Source of the DNA: the human T2T-CHM13v2.0 reference genome, Homo sapiens
DNA length: 64,000 nucleotides
Direction: 5' to 3' (one strand)
Assembly: GCF_009914755.1 (NCBI RefSeq)
Contig: NC_060926.1
Of the stretch, positions 28,080 to 28,671 are shown in pieces. Below the pieces are notes generated by a model. The model searched no databases, was not told the origin of the DNA, and saw nothing but the letters and a program-made list of their open reading frames with translations. How positions within the stretch are numbered: the first letter of the stretch is position 1; each line of letters starts with the position of its first letter. Both the position numbers and the translations under genes were made by a program.

Positions 28080-28300
<221 letters not shown>

Positions 28301-28318
28301 TTTTTTTTTTTTTTTTTT

Positions 28319-28445
28319 AATCAATAGTTTTCTTTATCATAGATTCAAAATTTTAAGCTTATTTTCCTTCCATTCTTTAGGCATTCAACACGTTGATGAA
28401 AAGTACAATGTCAGTCTACTTCTCATTCTTTTATCCGTAAACTTC
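28319..28445 (-). other. L1 3' transduced sequence (127 bp)
   Basis: Non-L1HS sequence between the L1 poly(A) (28446-28466) and a second poly(A) (28301-28318), inside the TSD pair. GATAAA lies 14 nt before the second tail. Confidence 0.9.
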
Positions 28446-28671
28446 TTTTTTTTTTTTTTTTTTTTTATTATACTCTAAGTTTTAGGGTACATGTGCACAT
28501 TGTGCAGGTTAGTTACATATGTATACATGTGCCATGCTGGTGCGCTGCACCCACTAATGTGTCATCTAGCATTAGGTATATCTCCCAATGCTATCCCTCC
28601 CCCCTCCCCCGACCCCACCACAGTCCCCAGAGTGTGATATTCCCCTTCCTGTGTCCATGTGATCTCATTGT

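What the first reader, a model, noticed from the sequence alone, without database searches (positions are those of the whole stretch)
28285..28466. L1HS carries a 127-bp 3' transduction that fingerprints its source element
Seen, in L1 orientation: L1 3' end - A21 - GAAGTTTACGGATAAAAGAATGAG...ATGATAAAGAAAACTATTGATT - A18-20 - TSD. Both poly(A) tracts lie inside the 16-bp TSD (ctggtcttgaactctt), so the 127 bp travelled with the L1. A variant signal, GATAAA, sits 14 nt before the second tail. Established: read-through of the weak L1 poly(A) signal mobilises 3' flanking DNA. Inference: the tag identifies the donor locus and any sibling insertions. It looks like a fragment of an ancient L1M, so repeat masking could hide it.
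Basis: partly seen in the sequence, partly recalled or inferred. Interest (0 to 1): 0.7.

Follow-up and report, generated by a model that had tools for sequence, protein, structure and literature searches.

The report
Five L1 offspring of missing parent
A jumping gene (LINE-1) inside the human TTL gene carries 127 bases that also lie on chromosome 5, and four other LINE-1 copies carry the start of the same tag, so all five likely descend from one parent element that is missing from this genome; the mechanism is well known, this family is a fresh example of it.

Summary
Observation confirmed. A full-length L1HS (28467-34486, minus strand, TTL intron 5) inserted into an Alu with a 16-bp TSD and carries A21 + 127 nt + A18-20. 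The 127 nt match chr5:141,632,393-519 at 100%, 4 kb past a protocadherin-type gene, where CHM13 has no L1 (empty site). Four more L1HS-Ta copies carry the same tag: chr7:71.42 Mb (AUTS2; full-length, 601-nt tag), chr4:14.74 Mb (full-length, 18 nt), chr6:17.31 Mb (truncated, 13 nt), chr7:132.02 Mb (inverted, 18 nt). The AUTS2 copy also has, at its 5' end, G plus the 16 chr5 bases that begin the tag, which fixes the donor's TSD and shows an L1 once sat at that chr5 site. All three full-length daughters have a broken ORF2. Mechanism: ordinary read-through 3' transduction. The AUTS2-chr5 link is in print (RISCI 2010); my searches did not find the five-member family or the donor TSD, but Szak 2003 and the T2T transduction tables were unreadable. 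Whether the donor is polymorphic or extinct could not be tested. The ancient-L1M origin of the tag is unproven. New member of a known kind; interest 0.35.

The parts
28080..28284 (-). 3' part of the Alu into which the L1 inserted
   Evidence: blastn to a reference Alu, positions 293-71, 85%
28285..28300 (-). 3' copy of the 16-bp target-site duplication
28299..28318 (-). second poly(A) tail (20 A, last 2 shared with TSD)
28319..28445 (-). 127-nt 3' transduction, identical to chr5:141,632,393-141,632,519
28333..28338 (-). GATAAA variant poly(A) signal, 14 nt before the second tail (use inferred)
28433..28448 (-). copy of the donor's own 16-bp TSD (3 A + first 13 nt of the tag)
   Evidence: same 16 nt sit at the 5' end of the chr7 sibling and once at chr5
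28446..28466 (-). first poly(A) tract (donor's tail, 21 A)
28467..34486 (-). full-length L1HS-Ta (annotated Ta1-nd), antisense in TTL intron 5
   Evidence: Philippe 2016 supplement rows
28672..32496 (-). ORF2, broken by two frameshifts (near 32405 and 31553); stops after 51 aa
   Evidence: RVT_1 in the 847-aa remnant
32560..33576 (-). ORF1, open, 338 aa
34487..34502 (-). 5' copy of the 16-bp TSD
34503..34573 (-). 5' part of the interrupted Alu
   Evidence: positions 85-2 of a reference Alu, 90%

Best explanation
The 127 bases inside this L1's target-site duplication are identical to a chr5 site that holds no L1 in this genome, and four other L1HS copies begin their 3' tag with the same bases, so all five likely descend from one full-length L1HS-Ta donor that once stood at chr5:141,632,507-522 and whose transcripts likely ran past the L1's own poly(A) signal. 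Shown: the tag, tails, TSDs, the empty chr5 site, the five daughters, and the chr7 (AUTS2) daughter carrying chr5 sequence on both sides of its L1. Inferred: (1) the donor inserted at a 5'-CTTT/AC nick with a 16-bp TSD, antisense to the neighbouring protocadherin gene; (2) RNA polymerase II read through and was cleaved at different points, +13, +18, +18, +127 (GATAAA) and +601 (ATTAAA/AATAAA); (3) each RNA was inserted by target-primed reverse transcription, the TTL copy into an Alu at a 5'-TCTT/GA nick; (4) one transcript started 16 nt upstream, at the first base of the donor's 5' TSD, and its cap was copied as an extra G; (5) the donor allele is rare or was lost by drift or selection while its daughters spread and decayed.
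For:: 3 matches in the genome, chr5 100%, chr7 99%; chr5 has one copy of the TSD word in 16 kb and no L1 at the site; inside its 10-bp TSD the chr7 copy has G + 16 nt identical to chr5 before the L1 and 601 nt of chr5 (2 mismatches) after it; the G replaces a genomic T; all 7 of 7 exact hits of the 15-mer are family sites (the reversed control gave 14 hits, so the word alone is not rare; its position behind an L1 tail is what counts). L1 3' end + tail + tag start gives 5 hits, control 0; with 2 mismatches 5 exact + 3 unrelated hits, control 6; chance of the 13-mer behind any of an assumed 2000 L1HS tails is about 4e-5. All five share ACA-type 3' ends and the same ORF2 diagnostic word. RISCI (PMC3024322): the 604-nt chr5 segment is contiguous in chimp chr5 and is the only chimp hit; chr4 and chr7:132 sites are empty in chimp with matching TSDs.
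Against: The donor itself was never seen. The daughters share no family-specific variant in the first 2.68 kb against 26-28 other L1HS, so the L1 bodies neither confirm nor deny the family; the few shared variants conflict (chr2+chr4 at 333, 2726, 5813; chr4+chr6 at 5348; chr2+chr7:132 at 5663), so direct descent of every copy from the chr5 donor is not shown. GATAAA is a weak signal, and the 601-nt transcript passed AATAAA at +231 and +410. The chimp state at TTL is an assembly gap in the only comparison read.
Confidence: 0.9

Rival explanations
1. The TTL copy is a granddaughter: it came from the AUTS2 copy (which holds the same first 127 nt) or another intermediate, not directly from chr5.
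For: The chr7 copy is full-length with an open ORF1 and an ORF2 open for 1255 of 1275 aa, has the fewest private changes (14 vs 25 and 29) and contains the whole TTL tag. chr2 and chr4 share three variants against chr7, hinting at a sub-lineage.
Against: At tag base 51 chr2 and chr5 have C, chr7 has T; chr2 carries none of chr7's private changes in the first 2.68 kb, and has more private changes than chr7, i.e. does not look younger.
Confidence: 0.2
2. The donor was once fixed at chr5 and was later removed cleanly by recombination between its TSDs, rather than never reaching fixation.
For: A clean excision leaves one TSD copy, as seen; the daughters appear common (TTL copy in hg18, Celera, CHM13 and with values in all listed cell-line columns of Philippe 2016).
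Against: An unfixed allele gives the same empty sequence with no extra event; precise excision is rare (recalled).
Confidence: 0.05
3. The tag moved by template switching, gene conversion or an assembly error rather than read-through.
For: None found.
Against: Five independent insertions with different TSDs and different tag ends all start at the same chr5 base behind a poly(A) tract; the TTL and AUTS2 insertions are also in hg18 and Celera.
Confidence: 0.02

Closest known systems
L1 3' transduction families (LRE3, AC002980, RP lineages; tags quoted in PMC4866827)
   Same: Several L1HS-Ta copies share a tag behind an internal poly(A) tract, with varied tag and tail lengths.
   Different: The tag differs from the three quoted lineage tags (compared by eye); the TTL and AUTS2 rows carry no lineage label; all full-length members here are broken and the donor is absent from the assembly.
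Chr11-progenitor transduction family (Salvador-Palomeque 2019, PMC6425141)
   Same: Members with both 5' and 3' transductions identify the donor unambiguously; an untemplated G before a 5' transduction is read as a copied cap.
   Different: Other loci (no chr2 or chr5 entry); its progenitor is present and active, here the progenitor is missing and is known only from its daughters.
'Proxy elements' (PMC13009371)
   Same: Reference L1 copies carrying a transduction from a source absent from the reference; short tags under 100 nt are common and easily missed.
   Different: Their proxies are truncated and their sources are living polymorphic L1s; here three daughters are full-length and the source has not been seen in any table I could search.
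RISCI L1HS_7_7 (PMC3024322)
   Same: The same AUTS2 insertion, with its 604-nt tag traced to hg18 chr5:140,466,369-972 and to chimp chr5.
   Different: RISCI did not trace the TTL copy (L1HS_2_8c, flagged INDEL_PTS over a chimp gap), filed chr4 and chr7:132 as mis-annotated poly(A), and in the parts read does not mention the 5' capture or a family.

Membership tests
L1-mediated 3' transduction | L1, extra segment and both poly(A) tracts inside one TSD | tested here: met
L1-mediated 3' transduction | Segment has a near-identical source elsewhere that lacks the second tail | tested here: met
L1-mediated 3' transduction | Poly(A) signal 10-30 nt before the second tail | tested here: met
   GATAAA 14 nt before; a variant hexamer, use not shown
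L1-mediated 3' transduction | A full-length donor L1 directly upstream of the source segment | tested here: inconclusive
   absent in CHM13; its former presence follows from the chr7 copy's 5' and 3' chr5 flanks
L1-mediated 3' transduction | Target site empty in apes | not testable with these tools
   no ape genome here; RISCI row shows a 329-N gap in chimp
L1HS-Ta1nd | Ta 3' UTR ACA and Ta-1 ORF2 diagnostics, no Ta-1d deletion near position 74 | tested here: met
   sequence read against recalled diagnostics; label 'Ta1-nd full-length' in PMC4866827 supplement
Retrotransposition-competent L1 | Both ORFs open | tested here: not met
   ORF2 stops after 51 aa (chr2), 126 aa (chr4), 1255 aa (chr7); chr4 ORF1 stops after 12 aa
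LRE3 / AC002980 / RP lineages and the chr11-progenitor family | Carries their tag or is listed as a member | tested here: not met
Proxy elements | Source absent from reference but segregating and active in people | not testable with these tools
   no population data; table searches negative but weak
Ancient L1M fragment (tag) | Detectable similarity to L1 ORF1 or L1M DNA | tested here: inconclusive
   tblastn best 17.7 bits vs shuffle median 16.2, nhmmer none; no L1 Pfam hit in 3 frames; no repeat library available

The most novel reading that the evidence does not exclude
An extinct hot L1 once sat inside the protocadherin-beta cluster, left at least five germline daughters (in TTL, AUTS2 and three other sites) and then disappeared from living humans; its exact position, orientation and TSD can be read from one daughter, so the filled allele can be sought directly in Neanderthal and Denisovan reads, and a second lost intermediate may have stood on chr18.
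Probability: 0.45. Interest if true: 0.55.

Novelty: new member of a known kind. Interest (0 to 1): 0.35.

Why it matters
It gives an exact, testable address for a productive L1 source that reference genomes do not show, and a small dated pedigree from the early Ta-1 period. It shows that 13-18-nt tags filed as poly(A) noise can link fixed reference L1s into families. In practice, reads from the TTL and AUTS2 tags can mis-map to chr5, and transductions from this lineage could be credited to a dead sibling. The mechanism itself is textbook.

Tried and rejected
Ancient-L1M origin of the tag: tblastn, nhmmer and Pfam gave nothing above background; left open. Gene conversion as the source of the chr2 5' UTR changes: best other match to a 161-nt variant-rich stretch was 97% among 40 of 2590 candidates scored; not supported, not excluded. 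Further long-tag or orphan members: none with a 1.9-kb chr5 query, 12 of 12 candidates scored. Longer 5' captures: the query was swamped by an Alu, 40 of 280 scored, uninformative. A family-specific L1 variant: none in the first 2.68 kb; full-length and 3' outgroups were not obtained, so the 3' half was compared only among family members and one old L1. The bacterial promoter scan is irrelevant here. Earlier findings were not available. Paper searches for TTL+L1HS+transduction+intron and LINE-1+protocadherin beta gave 0 papers; the tag word gave 1 unrelated paper.

Full report
Observation. The structure is as described. Two T-runs (28299-28318, 28446-28466) enclose 127 nt, and the 16-mer CTGGTCTTGAACTCTT occurs only at 28285 and 34487. 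Between them lies a 6.02-kb L1 on the minus strand, antisense in TTL intron 5 (hub gene table). The flanks are two halves of one Alu. ORF1 is open (338 aa); ORF2 has two frameshifts and stops after 51 aa, so this copy cannot jump by itself. Philippe 2016 labels it L1HS Ta1-nd, full-length, with no lineage or transduction entry (PMC4866827, supplement rows).

Source. The tag has 3 matches in the genome at E<=10: itself, chr5:141,632,393-519 (100%) and chr7:71,426,235-361 (99%). The chr5 site holds no L1 and one copy of the tag's first 13 nt in 16 kb. It lies 4,164 nt past the stop of a single-exon ORF with five cadherin repeats and a Cadherin_C_2 tail; I recall this as PCDHB3, and the name comes from no call. 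The nearest L1 there is an old 95% fragment 4 kb away, not the donor.

Proof that a donor stood there. The chr7 copy is a full-length L1 (71,420,200-71,426,215) followed by A19, 601 nt of chr5 (2 mismatches), A16 and a 10-bp TSD. Inside that TSD, before the L1, it has a G and then 16 nt identical to chr5:141,632,507-522, the same bases that begin the 3' tag; the genome has T where the G stands. An L1 with the same chr5 word on both sides is what a donor with a 16-bp TSD would yield if transcription began at the first base of its 5' TSD. The nick reads 5'-CTTT/AC, close to the L1 endonuclease preference (recalled). An untemplated G before a 5' transduction has been read as a copied cap (PMC6425141, passages).

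Family. An exact 15-mer search gave 7 hits and 7 of 7 are family sites; the reversed control gave 14, so position rather than rarity carries the weight. A pattern joining the L1 3' end to the tag start gave 5 hits, control 0. Allowing 2 mismatches added 3 unrelated hits, control 6. Members besides TTL and chr7:71.42: chr4:14,735,059-14,741,075 (full-length, 18-nt tag, TSD 9), chr6:17,306,899-17,307,784 (886 nt, 13-nt tag, short TSD of uncertain length) and chr7:132,016,298-132,018,152 (1,392 nt plus a 459-nt inverted part, 18-nt tag, TSD 16). Five is a lower bound: daughters cut at the L1's own tail carry no tag. All three full-length members have a broken ORF2.

Relationships. Private substitutions are 25 (chr2), 29 (chr4), 14 (chr7:71), 4 (chr7:132) and 2 (chr6), or 0.22-0.48%; two of the 14 are sites where chr2 and chr4 share the other state. 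With a recalled rate of 0.15% per million years that is roughly 1.5-3 million years; this is rate-dependent and not computed in a call. Against 28 other L1HS 5' ends (26 after dropping two poorly aligned rows), chr2 and chr7 share no derived variant in 2.68 kb, so the donor was close to the common Ta-1nd sequence. These outgroups were picked for likeness to chr2 from 40 of 4,891 candidates. The few shared variants conflict, so I cannot say whether the TTL copy is daughter or granddaughter; C at tag base 51, as in chr5 and unlike chr7, favours direct descent weakly.

Mechanism. Read-through of the L1 poly(A) signal, cleavage at +13, +18, +18, +127 or +601, and insertion by target-primed reverse transcription. 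GATAAA lies 14 nt before the TTL tail; ATTAAA and AATAAA lie 16 and 35 nt before the chr7 tail, and that transcript passed AATAAA at +231 and +410. Use of these signals is inferred. Varied ends from one source and tags under 100 nt are common (PMC13009371, passages).

What is in print. RISCI (PMC3024322; passages, sections 9-10, part 1 of 3 of file S2, searches of 9 supplement files) traces the AUTS2 element L1HS_7_7 to hg18 chr5:140,466,369-972 and to chimp chr5 as the only chimp hit. It flags the TTL element as a possible transduction over a 329-N chimp gap, occupied in Celera, and gives no source. It files chr4 and chr7:132 as mis-annotated poly(A), empty in chimp. No PCDHB or 14048-prefixed row occurs in the Philippe supplements; none of six prefixes occurs in Nam 2023 supplements (PMC10191854, supplement search only), but the TTL and AUTS2 prefixes were also absent, so that result is weak; no 5q31.3 or 141107 row occurs in PMC13009371 supplements. 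The hg19 and hg38 prefixes rest on recalled offsets. Searches did not show the family. Not readable: Szak 2003, Myers 2002, Pickeral 2000, the Science version of Hoyt 2022, and the supplements of PMC9311842 and PMC13192797 and of the Hoyt preprint (passages only: 183 top-confidence L1 3' transductions catalogued in CHM13). Any of these may list these loci. PMC10879037, PMC9311842 and PMC13192797 were seen as passages only, with no mention of these loci among the terms searched.

Verdict. The observation and main interpretation hold. This is a standard 3' transduction and a new member of a known kind: a five-copy family whose donor is missing from CHM13 but whose site, strand and TSD can be read from a sibling. 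Whether the donor survives in people is the open, directly testable question. Interest 0.35.

Noticed in passing
L059 (G000:C7:132,016,226-132,016,250) and L063 (G000:C18:22,581,318-22,581,342): The chr7:132 member has a second 26-nt AT-rich segment with AATAAA between two more A-runs; it matches chr18 exactly, in an AT-rich tandem array with no L1. It may be a second-generation transduction from another missing intermediate; the control pattern also gave 1 hit, so this is inconclusive.
   Followed up: partly
window 33576-34486: The TTL copy's 5' UTR holds 10 of its 25 private substitutions (binomial p 0.002, post hoc) and 12 differences from the majority versus 0 for chr7 and 1-10 in 26 outgroups. 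Unexplained.
   Followed up: partly
window 34381-34385 (+): A private 5-bp insertion in the L1 5' UTR makes CCG|GTAAGG followed by AAG|GTACCT on the TTL sense strand, two splice-donor-like sites (7 of 9 consensus matches each) where siblings have one weaker site. It could serve antisense-promoter transcripts into TTL exon 6; no such exon is in the hub table and one search showed no TTL chimera.
   Followed up: partly
window 34032-34247 (+): The antisense 71-aa ORF of the L1 5' UTR (ORF0, name recalled) is open and in the TTL sense direction.
   Followed up: no
L060/L056 (G000:C4:14,735,059-14,741,075): Likely the element listed as 4p15.33-1 with a 'germline' cell in PMC13009371 data S1 (column heads not seen). 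Both its ORFs are broken in CHM13, so transductions credited to it might be siblings from the missing donor.
   Followed up: partly
window 48443-52871 (-): An older 4.4-kb L1 (93% to the L1HS) in TTL intron 6, also antisense; two more old L1 scraps at 61380-62274.
   Followed up: no
L006 (G000:C7:71,420,173-71,426,858): RISCI reports a 25-bp chimp sequence at the AUTS2 site and reads it as insertion-mediated deletion alongside a TSD; not checked here.
   Followed up: no
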